NCBI RefSeq assembly: GCF_055900595.2
Contig: NZ_CM148325.1
Length of the DNA: 64,000 nucleotides
Direction: 5' to 3' (one strand)
Shown: one piece after another, positions 10,120-53,598 of the stretch
How positions within the stretch are numbered: position 1 is the first letter of the stretch
How the letters are laid out: each line of letters opens with the position of its first letter
The notes under the pieces: generated by a model
Databases searched by the model: none
What the model saw: only the letters and a program-made list of their open reading frames with translations
What the model was told of the DNA's origin: nothing
Program-made: the position numbers and the translations under genes

Positions 10120-10251
10120 ATGAAAAAGAAACCGGTTGCGCAGTTGGAGCGTCAGCATTCACTGCTGGAAAATCCATGTGCTTATGGGTTGTTATCGCAG
10201 TTCCAGGCTGCGATAGTCGTTAACTGTTTTACACTTAATAAAATAATTTGA
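10120..10251 (+). CDS. yqgB: small acid-stress protein YqgB (43 aa)
   Basis: ATG at 10120; [43 protein letters not shown], immediately upstream of speA. Too short for the ORF track. Confidence 0.65.
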
Positions 10252-10259
10252 GGTTCGCT

Positions 10260-12236
10260 ATGTCTGACGACATGTCTATGGGTTTGCCTTCGTCAGCGGG
10301 CGAACACGGTGTACTACGCTCCATGCAGGAGGTTGCAATGAGCTCCCAGGAAGCCAGCAAGATGCTGCGTACTTACAATATTGCCTGGTGGGGCAATAAC
10401 TACTATGACGTTAACGAGCTGGGCCACATCAGCGTGTGCCCGGACCCGGACGTCCCGGAAGCTCGCGTCGATCTCGCGCAGTTAGTGAAAACTCGCGAAG
10501 CACAGGGTCAGCGTCTGCCTGCACTGTTCTGTTTCCCACAGATCCTGCAGCACCGTTTGCGTTCCATTAACGCCGCGTTCAAACGAGCGCGGGAATCCTA
10601 CGGCTATAACGGCGATTACTTCCTCGTTTATCCGATCAAAGTTAACCAGCACCGCCGCGTGATTGAGTCCCTGATTCATTCGGGCGAACCGCTGGGCCTG
10701 GAAGCCGGTTCCAAAGCCGAGTTGATGGCGGTGCTGGCACATGCTGGCATGACCCGTAGCGTCATCGTCTGCAACGGTTATAAGGACCGCGAATATATCC
10801 GCCTGGCATTAATTGGCGAGAAGATGGGCCACAAGGTCTATCTGGTCATTGAGAAGATGTCAGAAATTGCCATTGTGCTGGATGAAGCAGAACGTCTGAA
10901 TGTCGTTCCTCGTCTGGGCGTGCGTGCACGTCTGGCTTCGCAGGGCTCGGGTAAATGGCAGTCCTCCGGCGGGGAAAAATCGAAGTTTGGCCTGGCGGCG
11001 ACTCAAGTACTGCAACTGGTTGAAACGCTGCGTGAAGCCGGGCGTCTCGACAGCCTGCAACTGCTGCACTTCCACCTCGGTTCGCAGATGGCGAATATTC
11101 GCGATATCGCGACAGGCGTTCGTGAATCCGCGCGTTTCTATGTGGAACTGCACAAGCTGGGCGTCAATATTCAGTGCTTCGACGTCGGCGGCGGTCTGGG
11201 CGTGGACTATGAAGGCACCCGTTCTCAGTCTGACTGCTCCGTAAACTACGGCCTCAATGAATACGCCAACAACATCATCTGGGCGATTGGTGATGCGTGT
11301 GAAGAAAATGGTCTGCCACATCCGACGGTAATCACCGAATCGGGTCGTGCGGTGACTGCGCATCACACCGTGCTGGTGTCGAATATCATCGGCGTGGAAC
11401 GTAACGAATACACGGTGCCGACCGCGCCTGCAGAAGATGCACCGCGCGCCCTGCAAAGCATGTGGGAAACCTGGCAGGAAATGCACGAACCGGGAACTCG
11501 CCGTTCTCTGCGTGAATGGTTACACGACAGCCAGATGGATCTGCACGACATTCATATCGGCTACTCTTCCGGCACCTTTAGCCTGCAAGAACGCGCATGG
11601 GCTGAGCAGCTTTATTTGAGCATGTGCCATGAAGTGCAAAAGCAGCTGGATCCGCAAAACCGTGCTCATCGTCCGATTATCGACGAGCTGCAGGAACGTA
11701 TGGCGGACAAAATGTACGTCAACTTCTCGCTGTTCCAGTCGATGCCGGATGCGTGGGGGATCGACCAGTTGTTCCCGGTTCTGCCGCTGGAAGGGCTGGA
11801 TCAAGTGCCGGAACGCCGCGCTGTGCTGCTGGATATTACCTGTGACTCAGACGGTGCTATCGACCACTATATTGATGGTGACGGTATTGCCACGACAATG
11901 CCTATGCCGGAGTACGATCCGGAGAATCCGCCGATGCTCGGTTTCTTTATGGTCGGCGCATATCAGGAGATCCTCGGCAACATGCACAACCTGTTCGGTG
12001 ATACCGAAGCGGTTGACGTGTTCGTCTTCCCTGATGGTAGCGTAGAGGTAGAACTGTCTGACGAAGGCGATACCGTGGCGGACATGCTGCAATATGTGCA
12101 GCTCGATCCGAAAACGCTGTTAACTCAGTTCCGCGATCAGGTGAAGAAAACCGATCTTGATGCTGAACTGCAACAACAGTTCCTGGAAGAGTTCGAGGCA
12201 GGTTTGTACGGTTATACCTATCTTGAAGATGAATAA
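10260..12236 (+). CDS. speA: biosynthetic arginine decarboxylase (658 aa)
   Basis: Track ORF (TTG-extended) trimmed to ATG at 10260, [20 protein letters not shown]... Confidence 0.96.
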
Positions 12237-12327: not shown

Positions 12328-12382
12328 GGTGATGCTGCCAACTTACTGATTTAGTGTATGATGGTGTTTTTGAGGTGCTCCA

Positions 12383-12658
12383 GTGGCTTCTGTTTCTATC
12401 AGCTGTCCCTCCTGTTCAGCTACTGACGGGGTGGTGCGTAACGGCAAAAGCACCGCCGGACATCAGCGCTATCTCTGCTCTCACTGCCGTAAAACATGGC
12501 AACTGCAGTTCACTTACACCGCTTCTCAACCCGGTACGCACCAGAAAATCATTGATATGGCCATGAATGGCGTTGGATGCCGGGCAACCGCCCGCATTAT
12601 GGGCGTTGGCCTCAACACGATTTTCCGCCATTTAAAAAACTCAGGCCGCAGTCGGTAA
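12383..12658 (+). CDS. insA: IS1 InsA (91 aa)
   Basis: [40 protein letters not shown]... zinc-finger N-terminus of IS1 InsA. Confidence 0.92.
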
Positions 12659-13080
12659 CCTCGCGCATACAGCCGGGCAGTGACGTCATCGTCTGCGCGG
12701 AAATGGACGAACAGTGGGGATACGTCGGGGCTAAATCGCGCCAGCGCTGGCTGTTTTACGCGTATGACAGGCTCCGGAAGACGGTTGTTGCGCACGTATT
12801 CGGTGAACGCACTATGGCGACGCTGGGGCGTCTTATGAGCCTGCTGTCACCCTTTGACGTGGTGATATGGATGACGGATGGCTGGCCGCTGTATGAATCC
12901 CGCCTGAAGGGAAAGCTGCACGTAATCAGCAAGCGATATACGCAGCGAATTGAGCGGCATAACCTGAATCTGAGGCAGCACCTGGCACGGCTGGGACGGA
13001 AGTCGCTGTCGTTCTCAAAATCGGTGGAGCTGCATGACAAAGTCATCGGGCATTATCTGAACATAAAACACTATCAATAA
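12577..13080 (+). CDS. insB: IS1 InsB reading frame (joined to InsA by -1 frameshift to give the InsAB' transposase)
   Basis: Track ORF with the IS1 InsB body (...[33 protein letters not shown]...); the 5' boundary of the track ORF is not a real start. Confidence 0.85.
12631..12639 (+). other. IS1 A6C-type -1 frameshift window (ttaaaaaac)
   Basis: ttaaaaaactc lies at the insA 3' end inside the insA/insB overlap. Confidence 0.6.
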
Positions 13081-13095
13081 GTTGGAGTCATTACC

Positions 13096-27440: not shown

Positions 27441-27566
27441 ATACTCTAAATAATTCGAGTTGCAGGAAGGCGACAAGAGAGTGAATCCCCAGGAGCTTAC
27501 ATAAGTAAGTGACTGGGGTGAGCGAACGCAGACGCAGCACATGCAACTTGAAGTATGACGAGTATA
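27441..27566 (+). repeat. ERIC (intergenic repeat unit) element
   Basis: Contains gtgaatccccaggagcttacat and aagtaagtgactggggtgagcg, the two sequences targeted by the standard ERIC primers; near-identical inverted copy at 39383-39507. Confidence 0.85.
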
Positions 27567-39382: not shown

Positions 39383-39507
39383 TATACTCGTCATACTTCA
39401 AGTTGCATGTGCTGTGTCTGCGTTCGCTCACCCCAGTCACTTACTTCTGTAAGCTCCTGGGGATTCACTCTCTTGTCGCCTTCCTGCAACTCGAATTATT
39501 TAGAGTA
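39383..39507 (-). repeat. ERIC element, inverted relative to the copy at 27441-27566
   Basis: Reverse complement of the pgk-fbaA ERIC with only a couple of mismatches by eye. Confidence 0.85.
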
Positions 39508-39545
39508 TAATGCGAGTGAAATTTCATACCACAGGCGAAACGATC

Positions 39546-40205
39546 ATGACGCAGGATGAATTGAAAAAAGCAGTAGGATGGGCGGCACTTCAGTATGTTC
39601 AGCCCGGCACCATTGTTGGTGTAGGTACAGGTTCCACCGCCGCACACTTTATTGATGCGCTCGGCACGATGAAAGGCCAGATTGAAGGGGCCGTTTCCAG
39701 TTCGGATGCGTCCACTGAAAAACTGAAAAGCCTCGGCATTCACGTTTTTGATCTCAACGAAGTCGACAGCCTTGGCATCTACGTTGATGGCGCAGATGAA
39801 ATCAACGGCCACATGCAAATGATCAAAGGCGGCGGCGCGGCGCTGACCCGTGAAAAAATCATTGCTTCGGTTGCGGAAAAATTTATCTGTATTGCAGACG
39901 CTTCTAAGCAGGTTGATATTCTGGGCAAATTCCCGCTGCCAGTAGAAGTTATCCCGATGGCACGTAGTGCAGTGGCGCGCCAGCTGGTGAAACTGGGCGG
40001 TCGTCCGGAATACCGTCAGGGCGTGGTGACCGATAACGGCAACGTGATCCTCGACGTCCACGGCATGGAAATCCTTGACCCGATAGCGATGGAAAACGCC
40101 ATAAATGCGATTCCGGGCGTGGTGACTGTTGGCTTGTTTGCTAACCGTGGCGCGGACGTTGCGCTGATTGGCACACCTGACGGTGTCAAAACCATTGTGA
40201 AATGA
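39546..40205 (+). CDS. rpiA: ribose-5-phosphate isomerase A (219 aa)
   Basis: Track ORF trimmed 12 codons to [35 protein letters not shown]... Confidence 0.95.
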
Positions 40206-40460: not shown

Positions 40461-41693
40461 ATGGCAAAGGTATCGCTGGAGAAAGACAAGATTAAGTTTC
40501 TGCTGGTAGAAGGCGTGCACCAAAAGGCGCTGGAAAGCCTTCGTGCAGCGGGTTACACCAACATCGAATTTCACAAAGGCGCGCTGGATGATGAACAATT
40601 AAAAGAATCCATCCGCGATGCCCACTTCATCGGCCTGCGATCCCGTACCCATCTGACTGAAGACGTGATCAACGCCGCAGAAAAACTGGTCGCTATTGGC
40701 TGTTTCTGTATCGGAACGAACCAGGTTGATCTGGATGCAGCTGCAAAACGCGGGATCCCGGTATTTAACGCACCGTTCTCTAATACGCGCTCTGTTGCGG
40801 AGCTGGTAATTGGCGAACTTCTGCTGCTATTGCGCGGCGTACCGGAAGCCAACGCTAAAGCGCACCGTGGTGTCTGGAACAAGCTGGCAGCTGGCTCTTT
40901 TGAAGCGCGCGGCAAAAAGCTGGGTATCATCGGCTATGGTCATATTGGTACACAGTTGGGCATTCTGGCTGAATCGCTGGGAATGTATGTTTACTTTTAT
41001 GATATTGAAAACAAACTGCCGCTGGGCAACGCCACTCAGGTACAGCATCTTTCTGATCTGCTGAATATGAGCGATGTGGTGAGTTTGCATGTGCCAGAGA
41101 ATCCGTCTACCAAAAATATGATGGGCGCGAAAGAGATTTCGCTAATGAAGCCCGGCTCGTTGCTGATTAATGCCTCGCGCGGAACGGTGGTGGATATTCC
41201 GGCACTGTGTGATGCGCTGGCGAGCAAACACCTGGCAGGTGCGGCAATCGATGTCTTTCCGACGGAACCGGCGACCAACAGCGATCCGTTTACCTCTCCG
41301 CTGTGCGAGTTCGATAACGTCCTTCTGACGCCACATATTGGCGGTTCGACTCAGGAAGCACAGGAGAATATCGGTCTGGAAGTTGCAGGTAAATTAATCA
41401 AGTACTCTGACAATGGCTCAACGCTCTCTGCGGTGAACTTCCCGGAAGTCTCGCTGCCACTGCATGGTGGGCGTCGTCTGATGCACATCCACGAAAACCG
41501 TCCGGGCGTGTTAACTGCGCTGAACAAAATCTTCGCCGAGCAGGGCGTTAACATCGCTGCACAGTATCTGCAAACCTCAGCGCAGATGGGTTATGTGGTT
41601 ATTGATATTGAAGCTGACGAAGACGTTGCCGAAAAAGCGCTGCAGGCAATGAAAGCTATTCCGGGCACCATTCGCGCCCGTCTGCTGTACTGA
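40461..41693 (+). CDS. serA: D-3-phosphoglycerate dehydrogenase (410 aa)
   Basis: MAKVSLEKDKIKFLLVEGVHQKALESLRAAGYTNIEFHKGALDDEQLKESIRDAHFIGLRSRT... full-length match. Confidence 0.96.
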   Translation: MAKVSLEKDKIKFLLVEGVHQKALESLRAAGYTNIEFHKGALDDEQLKESIRDAHFIGLRSRTHLTEDVINAAEKLVAIGCFCIGTNQVDLDAAAKRGIPVFNAPFSNTRSVAELVIGELLLLLRGVPEANAKAHRGVWNKLAAGSFEARGKKLGIIGYGHIGTQLGILAESLGMYVYFYDIENKLPLGNATQVQHLSDLLNMSDVVSLHVPENPSTKNMMGAKEISLMKPGSLLINASRGTVVDIPALCDALASKHLAGAAIDVFPTEPATNSDPFTSPLCEFDNVLLTPHIGGSTQEAQENIGLEVAGKLIKYSDNGSTLSAVNFPEVSLPLHGGRRLMHIHENRPGVLTALNKIFAEQGVNIAAQYLQTSAQMGYVVIDIEADEDVAEKALQAMKAIPGTIRARLLY

Positions 41694-41714
41694 TCTCCCT
41701 TCTTTAATAATCAA

Positions 41715-41744
41715 CGGGCAAGTCACTGGCTTGCCCGTTTTTTT
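41715..41744 (+). terminator. serA rho-independent terminator
   Basis: cgggcaagtcactggcttgcccg followed by ttttttt. Confidence 0.75.
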
Positions 41745-41756
41745 GTGCACAGAAAA

Positions 41757-42460
41757 CCCCCAGCTAGGCTGGGGGTTCCGGAAAGCTTTCAGCTTTGAGC
41801 CAGTTATTAAAACCCCTTTTGATTTGTTAAAACACCTTGCGGTCTGGCAACTGCAAGTGTCAAACAAGAAATCAAAAGGGGGTCCCAATGGGGGACGAAA
41901 AGAGCTTAGCGCACACCCGCTGGAACTGTAAATATCACATAGTTTTTGCGCCGAAATACCGAAGACTGGCGTTTTACGGAGAGAAGCGTAGGGCGATAGG
42001 CAGTATTTTGAGAAAGCTGTGTGAGTGGAAAAGCGTACGGATTCTGGAAGCAGAGTGCTGCGCAGATCATATCCATATGCTTGTGGAAATCCCACCCAAA
42101 ATGAGCGTATCCGGCTTTATGGGATATCTGAAAGGGAAAAGCAGTCTGATGCTTTACGAGCAGTTTGGGGATTTGAAATTCAAATACAGAAACAGGGAGT
42201 TCTGGTGCCGAGGGTACTATGTCGATACGGTGGGTAAGAACACGGCGAAGATACAGGACTACATAAAGCACCAGCTTGAAGAGGATAAAATGGGGGAGCA
42301 GTTATCGATTCCATATCCGGGCAGCCCGTTTACGGGCCGTAAGTAACGAAGTTGAATGCAAATGTCAGATCGTATGCGCCTGTTAGGGCGCGGCTGGTAA
42401 CAGAGCCTTACAGGCGCATTTGAAAAACCTCCGGCTATGCCGGAGGATATTTATTATCCC
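41757..42460 (+). mobile_element. IS200-like (IS200/IS605 family) element; boundaries approximate to about 30 bp
   Basis: Left-end palindrome cccccagctaggctggggg, a stem-loop covering the tnpA RBS, a 152-aa Y1/HUH transposase, and right-end hairpins (cctccggctatgccggagg). No terminal inverted repeats, as expected for this family. Confidence 0.75.
41888..42346 (+). CDS. tnpA: IS200-type Y1 (HUH) transposase TnpA (152 aa)
   Basis: Track ORF trimmed to MGDEKSLAHTRWNCKYHIVFAPKYRR...; HUH motif HIHMLV and catalytic-Tyr region conserved. Confidence 0.92.
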   Translation: MGDEKSLAHTRWNCKYHIVFAPKYRRLAFYGEKRRAIGSILRKLCEWKSVRILEAECCADHIHMLVEIPPKMSVSGFMGYLKGKSSLMLYEQFGDLKFKYRNREFWCRGYYVDTVGKNTAKIQDYIKHQLEEDKMGEQLSIPYPGSPFTGRK

Positions 42461-42599
42461 TTTTCCCGCGCATGTCACTGCCATTTGTAATGCGCTGCAA
42501 TTGCCTTTGCGAGTCTGCTCGAAGAAATAAATCAAAGCCAGATCAATGCGTTGTGCTTATTTAAAGAGAGTTTACGATGGCAGGGCAGCATGGGGCTGT

Positions 42600-42740
42600 A
42601 ACGGTAAAGCCCTCACCGAAGCGAGGGCTTGAAGGAGAAGGGTTATGATGCGACTCGTCATCATACTGATTGTACTGTTACTGATAAGTTTGCCAGCTTA
42701 TTAACAGTCAGTCACAGGGGAGGAGTCATCCTCCCTTACC
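42600..42740 (-). ncRNA. sibC: SibC antisense sRNA (antitoxin of ibsC); ends approximate
   Basis: Region antisense to ibsC ending in hairpin aagccctcgcttcggtgagggctt on the minus strand; position between serA and ygfA matches K-12 sibC. Confidence 0.45.
42645..42704 (+). CDS. ibsC: type I toxin IbsC, 19-aa hydrophobic peptide
   Basis: atgatgcgactcgtcatcatactgattgtactgttactgataagtttgccagcttattaa = MMRLVIILIVLLLISLPAY*, matching the Ibs toxin family as recalled. Too short for the ORF track. Confidence 0.65.
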   Translation: MMRLVIILIVLLLISLPAY

Positions 42741-42804
42741 CTTACTCACTAAATTAGGTTAAAGAATCAACGATGTCAATCAGGGCGATGCAGGTGTGTC
42801 GCCC

Positions 42805-43353
42805 TTACCACTCCCAGACTTTCGACGGTGTAACCACCGCAGGAAGTGGGATATCCCACTCTTCAACGGGGAGTTTTTCCACCAACTGACAATCATGCGC
42901 ATAACCCACCGGTTGCATTTGATAGCTCTGCCAGTTTTGTAAGGTCCGATCATAAAAACCACCGCCCATTCCCAGGCGCTGACCGTACTCATCAAAGGCG
43001 ACCAGCGGTGTGATCAACACGTCTAATCGGGAAAGGGGTAGCACGTCACGCACATCCAGTTTTGGCTCATGGATCTTCAACCTGTTCATCACCAGTTCGC
43101 TTTGCGGATGGTAATTCAGGAACAGCAAATTACCGGCACTAAAGGGATGCAAAACTGGAAGATATACGCGCTTACCGGCGCGCCAGAGTTGTTCTATGAG
43201 TGGCTGGGTGTCGAGTTCGCCATCAAAAGAGAGGAATACAGCGACCGTATGTGCCATCACCACCGGGGGATACGTCATCATCCGGGTAGCGGCTTGTTGA
43301 CCCATTTCCTGCTGTTGTTCCGGCGTTAACGCACGACGACGTTGCCGAATCAT
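42805..43353 (-). CDS. ygfA: 5-formyltetrahydrofolate cyclo-ligase (182 aa)
   Basis: Track ORF trimmed 18 codons to MIRQRRRALTPEQQQEMGQQAATRMM...; start choice uncertain. Confidence 0.85.
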   Translation of the reverse strand: MIRQRRRALTPEQQQEMGQQAATRMMTYPPVVMAHTVAVFLSFDGELDTQPLIEQLWRAGKRVYLPVLHPFSAGNLLFLNYHPQSELVMNRLKIHEPKLDVRDVLPLSRLDVLITPLVAFDEYGQRLGMGGGFYDRTLQNWQSYQMQPVGYAHDCQLVEKLPVEEWDIPLPAVVTPSKVWEW

Positions 43354-43427
43354 TTTGCGGATTTCTTGTCGAGATAATGTCAGTGGGATTTCTGGTAGTT
43401 GCGTCATGGCTGGTGCCAGATAAGAAG

Positions 43428-43610
43428 GGAATCTCCGAGATGCCGCCGCAGGCTGTAACCCTTGAACCCTTGGTTCAAGGTGAATGTGTCGTCACAGTTT
43501 TAAGGCTTCTCGGACGGACCGAGCATGCTCACCAACCGCGGAGCGCCACATTCTTGTGGTATGAAATATCGGCTCAGGGGACTGGCCCGCTTGCGAACAT
43601 CTCAGAGAAA
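43428..43610 (-). ncRNA. ssrS: 6S RNA
   Basis: Minus strand reads atttctctgagatgttcgcaagcgggccagtcccctgagccgatatttcataccacaagaatgtggcgctccgcggttggtgagcatgctcggtccgtccgagaagcc..., matching E. coli 6S RNA; located between zapA and ygfA. Confidence 0.88.
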
Positions 43611-43652
43611 TTTTGTCTTCACGGTTACTCTACCACAGTAAACCGAAAAGTG

Positions 43653-53487: not shown

Positions 53488-53598
53488 ACATTGCCTGATG
53501 CACCTCGTTTATCAGGCCTACATAGTCTGTGCAATGTATTGAATTTGCACGATCTTGTAGGCTGGATAAGGCGTTCACGCCGCATCCGGCATAATAAA
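53488..53598. repeat. REP/BIME units
   Basis: gcctgatgcacctcgtttatcaggcctaca and inverted gtaggctggataaggcgttcacgccgcatccggc. Confidence 0.75.

What the first reader, a model, noticed from the sequence alone, without database searches (positions are those of the whole stretch)
41757..42460. IS200-like element inserted between serA and the ibsC/sibC locus
A roughly 0.7-kb element carrying a 152-aa Y1/HUH transposase, a 5' palindrome and a stem-loop over the tnpA RBS sits just after the serA terminator and about 180 bp upstream of ibsC. K-12 does not carry IS200 as far as I recall, so together with IS1 this points to a non-K-12 lineage. The insertion is adjacent to the SibC promoter/terminator region on the other strand and could affect antitoxin RNA levels.
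Basis: partly seen in the sequence, partly recalled or inferred. Interest (0 to 1): 0.45.

Follow-up and report, generated by a model that had tools for sequence, protein, structure and literature searches.

The report
Ordinary IS200 copy behind serA terminator
This is an intact copy of the well-known small insertion sequence IS200, placed exactly at the end of the serA transcription terminator, which looks like this element's preferred kind of landing site; it leaves the neighbouring ibsC/SibC toxin-antitoxin locus untouched.

Summary
It has an intact 152-aa Y1/HUH transposase, left and right subterminal hairpins, and a 5'UTR stem-loop that buries the ribosome-binding site. Two empty sites, in K-12 MG1655 and in a strain with the same flank allele, fix the ends to within 2 nt and show no target duplication.

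The element lies directly after the seven-T run of the serA terminator. It is 147 nt from the SibC 3' end, 189 nt from the ibsC ATG, and about 300 nt from the SibC promoter, which is on the far side. So "adjacent to the SibC promoter/terminator" is wrong, and any effect on SibC is speculative. Both IS ends also carry terminator-like hairpins.

The position is not chance. 17 of 5,426 complete E. coli genomes carry IS200 in this same T-run, involving two IS200 subtypes, two flank alleles and several junction variants. Across 138 distinct IS200-type left junctions from many taxa, 80% pass a strict hairpin-plus-T-tract test, against 0.6% of controls.

Verdict: an already known element, of low interest as filed. 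The terminator targeting is a side observation worth following up. I could not establish whether it has been published.

The parts
40461..41693 (+). serA (phosphoglycerate dehydrogenase), the gene upstream of and co-oriented with the IS
   Evidence: ORF of 410 aa. Annotated as serA in the matching E. coli records.
41713..41744 (+). serA intrinsic terminator: hairpin 41713-41739 plus T-run 41738-41744. This is the insertion target; the IS starts immediately after the 7th T.
   Evidence: Terminator scan found 12 pairs, 7 of them GC. DNA fold. The empty sites show hairpin-T7 directly followed by ATCCC.
41745..42455 (+). IS200 element, 711 bp, with no terminal inverted repeats and no target-site duplication. 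Ends are good to within 2 nt.
   Evidence: Empty-site comparisons. The same ends are seen at 20 other sites. Copies 100% identical over 711 bp occur elsewhere in E. coli.
41755..41777 (+). Left-end subterminal hairpin AACCCCCAGC-TAG-GCTGGGGGTT, at nt 11-33 of the element. In Salmonella IS200 the equivalent hairpin (nt 12-34) is a bidirectional terminator. It is also the presumed TnpA binding site.
   Evidence: Function is by homology, from PMC4513863.
41807..41896 (-). [quoted passage not shown] Coordinates were transferred from the Salmonella description and not measured here.
   Evidence: PMC4513863. Rfam STnc490 matches the same segment on the + strand.
41813..41882 (+). tnpA 5'UTR stem-loop (nt 69-138 of the element) that sequesters the Shine-Dalgarno AAGGGGGT at 41876-41883.
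   Evidence: RNA fold: -43.8 kcal/mol, z = -4.7. Coordinates. The positions are the same as in Salmonella IS200.
41888..42346 (+). tnpA, a 152-aa Y1/HUH transposase (H61-I-H63, Y125)
   Evidence: PDB relatives include 2ec2, IS608 TnpA (2a6m) and 2xm3.
42428..42446 (+). Right-end subterminal hairpin CCTCCGGC-TAT-GCCGGAGG, followed by ATATTTATT, the last 9 nt of the element. It is terminator-like on both strands.
42456..42505 (.). Variable spacer of native sequence between the IS and the conserved ibsC upstream block. The window has the 'long' allele.
   Evidence: Alignments.
42645..42704 (+). ibsC (19-aa type I toxin, MMRLVIILIVLLLISLPAY), intact
   Evidence: Sequence. Mapped from the MG1655 and RefSeq annotation.
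42603..42743 (-). SibC antitoxin sRNA, using the MG1655 b4446 coordinates transferred by alignment. The Rfam SIB_RNA match covers 42629-42779 and includes the promoter.

Best explanation
An intact copy of IS200 (IS200/IS605 family, tnpA-only IS200 group) is inserted, without target duplication, immediately 3' of the T-tract of the serA intrinsic terminator and in the same orientation as serA.

By homology with IS608 and ISDra2, it would move by single-strand 'peel and paste'. The Y1/HUH transposase binds the left and right subterminal hairpins on the top strand, excises a single-stranded circle, and pastes it 3' of a short target on single-stranded DNA.

For this clade the target appears to be a hairpin followed by a T-rich tail ending in TT, which is the DNA image of an intrinsic terminator. 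That pattern also resembles the element's own right end (hairpin plus ATATTTATT). An A-run lies immediately 5' of both hairpin feet (LE CAGAAAA|CCCCC, RE TTGAAAAA|CCTCC). This is where IS608 carries the guide tetranucleotide that pairs with the cleavage site, so it fits a T-rich cleavage site.

The serA terminator is therefore a recurrent hot spot rather than a coincidental neighbour. The copy is probably near-silent. It sits behind two terminators in tandem (serA's own and the left-end hairpin), its Shine-Dalgarno sequence is buried in a stem-loop, and an antisense RNA (art200) is inferred. It probably has little or no effect on ibsC or SibC, whose sequences and promoters are intact and 147-300 nt away.

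Shown here: the ends, the anatomy, the lack of target duplication, the flank pattern and the recurrence.
Inferred: the single-strand mechanism, guide pairing, hairpin recognition, silence of the copy, and the lack of effect on SibC.
For: Identity and anatomy:
- Searches give the protein family, motifs and hairpins.
- Feature positions match the published Salmonella IS200 map: hairpin nt 12-34, stem-loop nt 69-138, Y125 catalytic (PMC4513863).

Ends and absence of target duplication:
-.

Recurrence at this site:
- 17 of 5,426 complete E. coli genomes are occupied in the same orientation.
- The copies at this site are window-type (99.9-100%) in the window and two genomes, and IS200C-type (>=99% to IS200C, about 96% to the window) in nine.
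- There are two right-flank alleles and five junction variants.
- Six different fau protein accessions flank the occupied sites.

Target pattern:
- 21 of 21 E. coli-type copies carrying either TnpA abut a hairpin plus T-rich tail. In 18 of the 19 sites with an upstream gene call on record (the window plus L013-L032 other than L015 and L028), a co-oriented gene ends 50-230 nt before tnpA; L015 and L028 are the exceptions.
- Of 138 unique left flanks across E. coli, Y. pestis IS1541, Vibrio, Brenneria and several MAGs, 110 pass a strict perfect-stem terminator test, against 4 of 700 controls.
- 99% of flanks have MFE <= -10 kcal/mol, against 39% of controls. T count in the last 8 nt is 6.0 against 1.9.
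- Tandem Y. pestis copies use the right-end hairpin plus ATATTTATT of the upstream copy as target (L108, L109, L111).

Strand:
- The window's + strand has GC skew +0.038, and serA is on the minus strand of MG1655 at 3.057 Mb. The IS top strand is therefore on the lagging-strand template, as is usual for this family (PMC5027513).

Insulation:
- Terminator-like hairpins are predicted at the right end on both strands.
Against: - No transposition, cleavage or expression data exist for this copy.
- T6/T7/T8 junction differences could be homopolymer sequencing errors or slippage rather than distinct insertion positions.
- Two IS subtypes at one site could arise by gene conversion between IS copies rather than by separate insertions.
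- Because terminators lie in non-essential DNA, part of the flank bias could be survivorship (selection against insertions elsewhere) rather than target choice. However, the exact junction at the end of the T-tract and the fixed orientation argue for targeting.
- The published view is that IS200 is essentially immobile in E. coli and Salmonella (PMC12594629).
- Many cross-taxon loci are MAG contig ends, where binning of an enterobacterial-type IS may be unreliable. The junction sequences themselves are still real.
Confidence: 0.9

Rival explanations
1. One reading: the insertion perturbs the ibsC/SibC toxin-antitoxin pair, for example by read-out from tnpA into ibsC (antisense to SibC), or by changing local terminator or promoter context.
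For: The IS is on the ibsC sense strand, 189 nt upstream of the ATG. The right-end tail ATATTTATT is an imperfect U-tract, so some tnpA read-through is conceivable.
Against: - The SibC promoter is on the far side, about 300 nt away, and the SibC 3' end is 147 nt away.
- All native sequence from 42456 rightwards matches an unoccupied genome apart from single-base differences.
- The right-end hairpin is terminator-like on both strands.
- tnpA transcription is described as intrinsically weak (PMC4513863).
- The same site is tolerated in 17 genomes of different backgrounds.
Confidence: 0.07
2. The position after the serA terminator reflects one ancestral insertion inherited vertically or spread by recombination, plus purifying selection that leaves only harmless intergenic copies. 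On this view there is no real target preference for terminators.
For: Only 0.3% of genomes are occupied. Five of the 17 are near-identical 'N' isolates and two are the SX4/SX48 pair. The serA-ibsC segment shows divergent alleles, suggesting recombination.
Against: - Two IS subtypes 4% apart occupy the site.
- Occupied and empty versions exist for both flank alleles.
- Junction variants occur.
- 110 of 138 independent sites in many taxa share the exact hairpin-T-tract junction in one orientation, against 0.6% of controls. Selection for harmlessness alone would not put the junction at the last T nor fix the orientation.
Confidence: 0.1
3. The copy is retained mainly as a source of regulatory RNAs (the processed 5'tnpA sRNA and art200 acting in trans), as reported for Salmonella, rather than as a mobile element.
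For: The 5' region matches Rfam STnc490 at 146 bits over the full model. Trans-regulatory roles for 5'tnpA are published for Salmonella (PMC5435999, PMC12594629). The sequence is highly conserved, with 100% identical copies in other strains.
Against: About half of E. coli genomes lack IS200 entirely. The published targets are Salmonella virulence genes absent from E. coli. High identity between copies is equally explained by recent transposition.
Confidence: 0.15

Closest known systems
IS200 of Salmonella enterica (707-709 bp; IS200/IS605 family, IS200 group)
   Same: - A single tnpA encoding a 152-aa Y1/HUH transposase with catalytic Y125.
- Left-end hairpin at nt 11-33 versus 12-34 in Salmonella.
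- 5'UTR stem-loop at nt 69-138 hiding the SD AAGGGGGU.
- The STnc490/art200 region and a right-end hairpin.
- No inverted repeats.
   Different: 711 bp rather than 707 bp. This is an E. coli isoform whose exact ISfinder name was not checked. I did not align it to a Salmonella reference sequence.
IS200C (the name PGAP gives the common E. coli isoform)
   Same: Same length (711 bp), the same ends (GTGCACAG...GGATATTTATT), and the same terminator-abutting insertion pattern. It occupies the same serA site in nine fetched genomes.
   Different: About 96% nucleotide identity to the window copy. RefSeq labels the window-type protein only 'IS200/IS605 family transposase'.
IS1541 of Yersinia pestis
   Same: The same left-end hairpin, the same left junction rule (hairpin plus T-tract, then GTGCCCAG...), and the same right end. 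It is high-copy and includes head-to-tail tandems spaced 710 bp apart.
   Different: A different host and a few substitutions in the first 10 nt (GTGCCCAG versus GTGCACAG).
IS608 (H. pylori) and ISDra2 (D. radiodurans), the mechanistic paradigms
   Same: Homologous TnpA: PDB 2a6m/2vjv at E=3e-19 and 2xm3 at E=5e-16. Both have subterminal hairpins, insert 3' of a short target flanking the left end, make no target duplication, and show lagging-strand-template bias.
   Different: They carry tnpB and use simple tetra- or pentanucleotide targets (TTAC, TTGAT) with no reported need for a hairpin in the target. Here the target looks like hairpin plus T-tail.
Bacterial class C group II introns (functional analogy only; own knowledge, not tested here)
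   Same: They insert just downstream of intrinsic-terminator stem-loops, so they avoid gene disruption.
   Different: They are unrelated retroelements with an RNA-based mechanism.

Membership tests
IS200/IS605 family, IS200 group | Encodes a Y1 HUH transposase (TnpA) | tested here: met
   Pfam PF01797 E=9e-37. NCBIfam NF033573 scores 144 bits against a cutoff of 55. PDB homologues include 2ec2, 2a6m and 2xm3.
IS200/IS605 family, IS200 group | HUH motif and a single catalytic tyrosine present | tested here: met
   H61-I-H63 and Y125. Y125F is the catalytically dead mutant of Salmonella TnpA (PMC4513863).
IS200/IS605 family, IS200 group | No terminal inverted repeats; subterminal hairpins at both ends | tested here: met
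   The left hairpin 41755-41777 and right hairpin 42428-42446 fold as ssDNA. The two ends are unrelated in sequence.
IS200/IS605 family, IS200 group | No target-site duplication on insertion | tested here: met
   The empty sites read T7|ATCCC and the occupied site reads T7-IS-ATCCC.
IS200/IS605 family, IS200 group | Insertion 3' of a conserved short target that flanks the left end | tested here: met
   The left flank ends in TT in at least 114 of 138 unique sites, with positions -6 to -1 strongly T. In addition, a preceding hairpin is nearly universal.
IS200/IS605 family, IS200 group | tnpA only, no tnpB; about 0.7 kb | tested here: met
   711 bp with a single 152-aa ORF of the family.
IS200/IS605 family, IS200 group | Left-end terminator hairpin, SD-sequestering 5'UTR stem-loop, and STnc490/art200 region | tested here: met
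   Rfam RF01405 at 146 bits over the full model. Fold z = -4.7. Expression of art200 was not tested.
IS200/IS605 family, IS200 group | Single-strand 'peel and paste' transposition | not testable with these tools
   Inferred from homology to IS608 and ISDra2.
Sib/Ibs type I toxin-antitoxin locus (the neighbour, not the element) | Sib sRNA antisense to a 19-aa hydrophobic Ibs ORF | tested here: met
   Rfam SIB_RNA at 135.9 bits, 42629-42779 on the minus strand. ibsC at 42645-42704 on the plus strand. MG1655 annotation of sibC and ibsC transferred by alignment.

The most novel reading that the evidence does not exclude
IS200-clade elements (IS200, IS200C, IS1541 and relatives in Vibrio, Desulfovibrionaceae and Firmicutes) may recognise intrinsic terminators as a structured single-strand target. 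The target would be a hairpin plus T-tail that mimics the element's own right end, read in one orientation. If so, individual terminators such as serA's would be hit repeatedly and independently, and the E. coli isoforms would be, or recently were, mobile, contrary to the view that IS200 is an immobile ancestral genome component. The flank pattern itself is solid. What is uncertain is whether it reflects hairpin recognition by TnpA rather than a T-rich target plus selection, and whether it is already described in literature I could not read (Beuzon & Casadesus 1997; Odaert et al. 1998; He et al. 2015).
Probability: 0.3. Interest if true: 0.45.

Novelty: already known. Interest (0 to 1): 0.17.

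Why it matters
As filed, it matters little. It is one more copy of a long-known insertion sequence, useful mainly as a strain marker, since K-12 and about half of complete E. coli genomes lack IS200.

The wider pattern could matter more. If IS200-type elements really read terminator hairpins as targets, three things would follow:
- It would explain how a very compact element reaches high copy number (up to 35 per E. coli genome) without disrupting genes.
- It would give a natural example of structure-guided targeting by a Y1 transposase, beyond the tetranucleotide rule of IS608.
- It would make 'IS200 is immobile' directly testable, by looking for recurrent independent hits at defined terminators.

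Tried and rejected
1. I first suspected a non-E. coli Escherichia species, because the flanks were only 93-94% identical to most E. coli. I rejected this. The 11.7 kb upstream reaches 99.0% to complete E. coli genomes, and the IS1/speA region is 100% identical to strains U1 and 28Eco12. The low local identity comes from divergent alleles of the serA 3' end and the serA-ibsC spacer.

2. I looked for a second IS200 copy in the window and found none. The repeat finder returned only an ERIC-like pair.

3. I looked for an outward sigma-70 promoter at the IS right end facing ibsC. The consensus scan found none on the + strand.

4. Eight full-text searches found no explicit statement that IS200 or IS1541 targets terminators. 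The nearest is a bioRxiv survey noting terminator-like sequences over-represented upstream of ISs, strongest for IS200/IS605 (10.1101/2025.07.22.666184). It cites prior experimental evidence that such terminators are active, rather than treating them as a flanking target. The key older papers (PMC146608, PMC106867) are not held.

5. I tried measuring hairpin-to-junction tail length from MFE structures. This was uninformative, because A-run/T-run pairing extends the predicted stems.

Full report
**1. What is there.**
The region reads rpiA (39510-40205, +), serA (40461-41693, +), an insert, ibsC/SibC, fau (42805-43407, -), 6S RNA (43428-43611, -), zapA and ygfB. This is the K-12 serA-sibC-fau-ssrS neighbourhood in reverse orientation.

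The serA stop is followed by a strong intrinsic terminator: a hairpin at 41713-39 and a T-run at 41738-44. In unoccupied genomes the T7 run is followed directly by ATCCC. This holds in K-12-like strain 9FA, in MG1655, and in strain 2020CK-00188, whose right flank is the same allele as the window.

In the window, 711 bp (41745-42455) lie between T7 and ATCCC, with no duplicated target. The ends can slide by up to 2 nt because TT both precedes and ends the insert.

**2. Anatomy of the insert.**
- The left hairpin is at 41755-41777, a 10-bp stem.
- A long 5'UTR stem-loop spans 41813-41882 and pairs the Shine-Dalgarno AAGGGGGT (41876-83). MFE is -43.8 kcal/mol, z = -4.7, and no shuffle of 200 folds as well.
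- tnpA is at 41888-42346 and encodes 152 aa. It matches Pfam Y1_Tnp at 9e-37 and NCBIfam transpos_IS200 at 144 bits against a cutoff of 55. It has H61-I-H63 and Y125. Solved homologues include 2ec2, IS608 TnpA (2a6m) and 2xm3.
- The right hairpin is at 42428-42446, followed by ATATTTATT.
- Rfam STnc490 matches 41755-41878 end to end at 146 bits.

Element-relative positions coincide with the published map of Salmonella IS200: hairpin nt 11-33 here versus nt 12-34, and stem-loop nt 69-138. The catalytic Y125 also matches (PMC4513863). By that paper, an antisense sRNA (art200) is encoded opposite the 5'UTR. I transferred its position (about 41896->41807, minus strand) but did not test it.

Identical 711-bp copies exist at other loci in several E. 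coli genomes. 2,641 of 5,426 complete genomes carry IS200 sequence, with up to 35 places per genome. The element is therefore an ordinary, intact IS200.

**3. Relation to ibsC and SibC.**
Transferring the MG1655 annotation by a gap-free alignment places SibC at 42743->42603 (minus strand) and ibsC at 42645-42704 (plus strand). The Rfam SIB match (42629-42779) begins with the TTGACA -35 box, so the SibC promoter is at about 42750-42779, on the side away from the IS.

The IS right end is 147 nt from the SibC 3' end, 189 nt from the ibsC ATG, and about 300 nt from the SibC promoter. The sequence from 42456 onward matches that of the unoccupied same-allele genome apart from single-base differences. 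The first 50 nt (42456-42505) are a naturally variable spacer.

The right hairpin is terminator-like on both strands. The left hairpin, together with serA's own terminator, blocks entry from serA. The element therefore abuts the serA terminator, not sibC. An effect on SibC is possible only through weak read-out, and I rate it at about 0.07.

**4. Why this position.**
17 of 5,426 complete E. coli genomes have IS200 at this same place and in the same orientation. In the twelve occupied sites I compared:
- The IS is the window type (99.9-100%) in the window, L001 and L003.
- It is the IS200C type (>=99% to IS200C, about 96% to the window) in L004-L012.
- Both right-flank alleles occur in occupied and in empty form.
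- The junctions differ: T7|IS|ATCCC, T6|IS|T-ATCCC, T7|IS|T-ATCCC, T8|IS|ATCCC and T7ATT|IS|T-ATCCC.
- Six different fau protein accessions flank them.

This points to several independent insertions into one T-tract. Two caveats apply: homopolymer lengths can be sequencing or slippage artefacts, and the IS subtype could be swapped by gene conversion.

**5. The general rule.**
Ten other sites encoding the identical TnpA and ten encoding the IS200C TnpA all show the left end (GTGCACAGAAAACCCCCAGC...) abutting a GC-rich hairpin plus a T-rich tail. In 18 of the 19 sites with an upstream gene call on record, a co-oriented gene ends 50-230 nt before tnpA; L015 and L028 are the exceptions.

These came from Y. 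pestis (IS1541), Vibrio ruber and V. penaeicida, Brenneria, Edwardsiella, Pluralibacter, and MAGs labelled Mailhella/Desulfovibrio, Bacillota, Oxalobacter and others. Pooled results:
- Of 138 unique left flanks, 110 pass a strict test (perfect stem of at least 5 bp with at least 3 GC pairs, loop of 3-8 nt, T-rich tail reaching the junction), against 4 of 700 random controls.
- 99% have a 45-nt MFE of -10 kcal/mol or lower, against 39% of controls.
- The last 8 nt hold 6.0 T on average, against 1.9.
- Most strict-test 'failures' still show imperfect hairpins by eye.
- Positions -6 to -1 are strongly T and the flank ends in TT.

In Y. pestis, head-to-tail tandems occur in which the upstream copy's right hairpin plus ATATTTATT serves as the target (L108, L109, L111). 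The element's own right end therefore fits the target definition.

Both hairpins are preceded by an A-run (LE CAGAAAA|CCCCC, RE TTGAAAAA|CCTCC). In IS608 the tetranucleotide 5' of the hairpin foot is the guide that pairs with the cleavage site (PMC6006769). An A-run guide would fit T-rich cleavage sites, but this is an inference.

The window's + strand has positive GC skew (+0.038), and serA lies on the MG1655 minus strand at 3.057 Mb. With oriC near 3.93 Mb (own knowledge), the IS top strand lies on the lagging-strand template, which is the family's usual bias (PMC5027513).

**6. Comparison with what is known.**
The element passes every sequence-testable membership criterion of the IS200 group; see the membership table. 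The mechanism is inferred from IS608 and ISDra2.

I found no explicit published statement of the terminator-abutting rule in the searchable library. The closest is a bioRxiv survey reporting terminator-like sequences over-represented immediately upstream of ISs, strongest for IS200/IS605. The older IS200 and IS1541 papers and the 2015 family review could not be read, so I make no claim of novelty for it. [quoted passage not shown]

**7. Lineage.**
MG1655 is empty at this site, and a K-12-like genome shows no IS200 anywhere (H13). The non-K-12 inference is therefore right, although IS1 alone is not diagnostic. No complete E. coli genome in the collection matches the occupied locus above 95.8%. 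The upstream 11.7 kb peaks at 99.0%, and the IS1-speA junction is 100% identical to strains U1 and 28Eco12. The window is E. coli-type, from a lineage or mosaic not represented exactly in that set.

**8. Verdict.**
Novelty: already known. Interest: 0.17. The side observation on terminator targeting and recurrent hits deserves a systematic check.

Noticed in passing
window 41713-41745; loci L013-L152: IS200-type elements from many taxa abut a hairpin plus T-tract (an intrinsic terminator) at their left end, always in the same orientation. 110 of 138 unique flanks pass a strict test, against 4 of 700 controls. The serA terminator is occupied in 17 E. coli genomes, involving two IS subtypes and several junction variants.
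   Followed up: yes
L108, L109, L111 (Yersinia pestis NCTC5923): Head-to-tail tandem IS1541 copies spaced 710 bp apart. The downstream copy starts right after the upstream copy's right hairpin plus ATATTTATT, so the element's own right end behaves as a target.
   Followed up: partly
window 41350-41744 and 42456-42560: The 3' end of serA, its terminator and the serA-ibsC spacer are a divergent allele, about 93% identical to most E. coli against about 99% for the upstream 11.7 kb. The spacer has 'long' and 'short' alleles (a 12-nt indel plus substitutions). The terminator stem keeps its pairing through different wobble positions. IbsC ends ...ISLPAY here against ...ISFSAY in K-12.
   Followed up: partly
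window 12328 onward (about 12328-13095): An IS1 left end with an exact 23-nt match lies just downstream of the speA ORF (10248-12236). The 2-kb junction region is 100% identical to E. coli strains U1 and 28Eco12. Only 10 of 5,426 genomes share the arrangement.
   Followed up: partly
window 27441-27566 and 39383-39508: A 126-nt inverted repeat pair, 98% complementary, 11.8 kb apart. The size and position (intergenic, one copy just upstream of rpiA) suggest ERIC/IRU elements. The second copy gives a sub-threshold Rfam hit to V_AS5 (41 bits against a gathering score of 96).
   Followed up: no
window 53514-53556 (-): An Rfam ES036 (CssrF) sRNA match just above the gathering score (38.4 against 37.6 bits).
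   Followed up: no
L033-L070, L074-L081, L098-L101 (MAG contigs): Exact enterobacterial-type IS200 left hairpins sit at the ends of many contigs of MAGs labelled Oxalobacter, Saccharibacteria, Peptococcaceae, Mailhella, Bacillota and Desulfovibrio. This suggests either genuinely wide spread of this IS clade or assembly breaks and binning artefacts at a repeated element.
   Followed up: no
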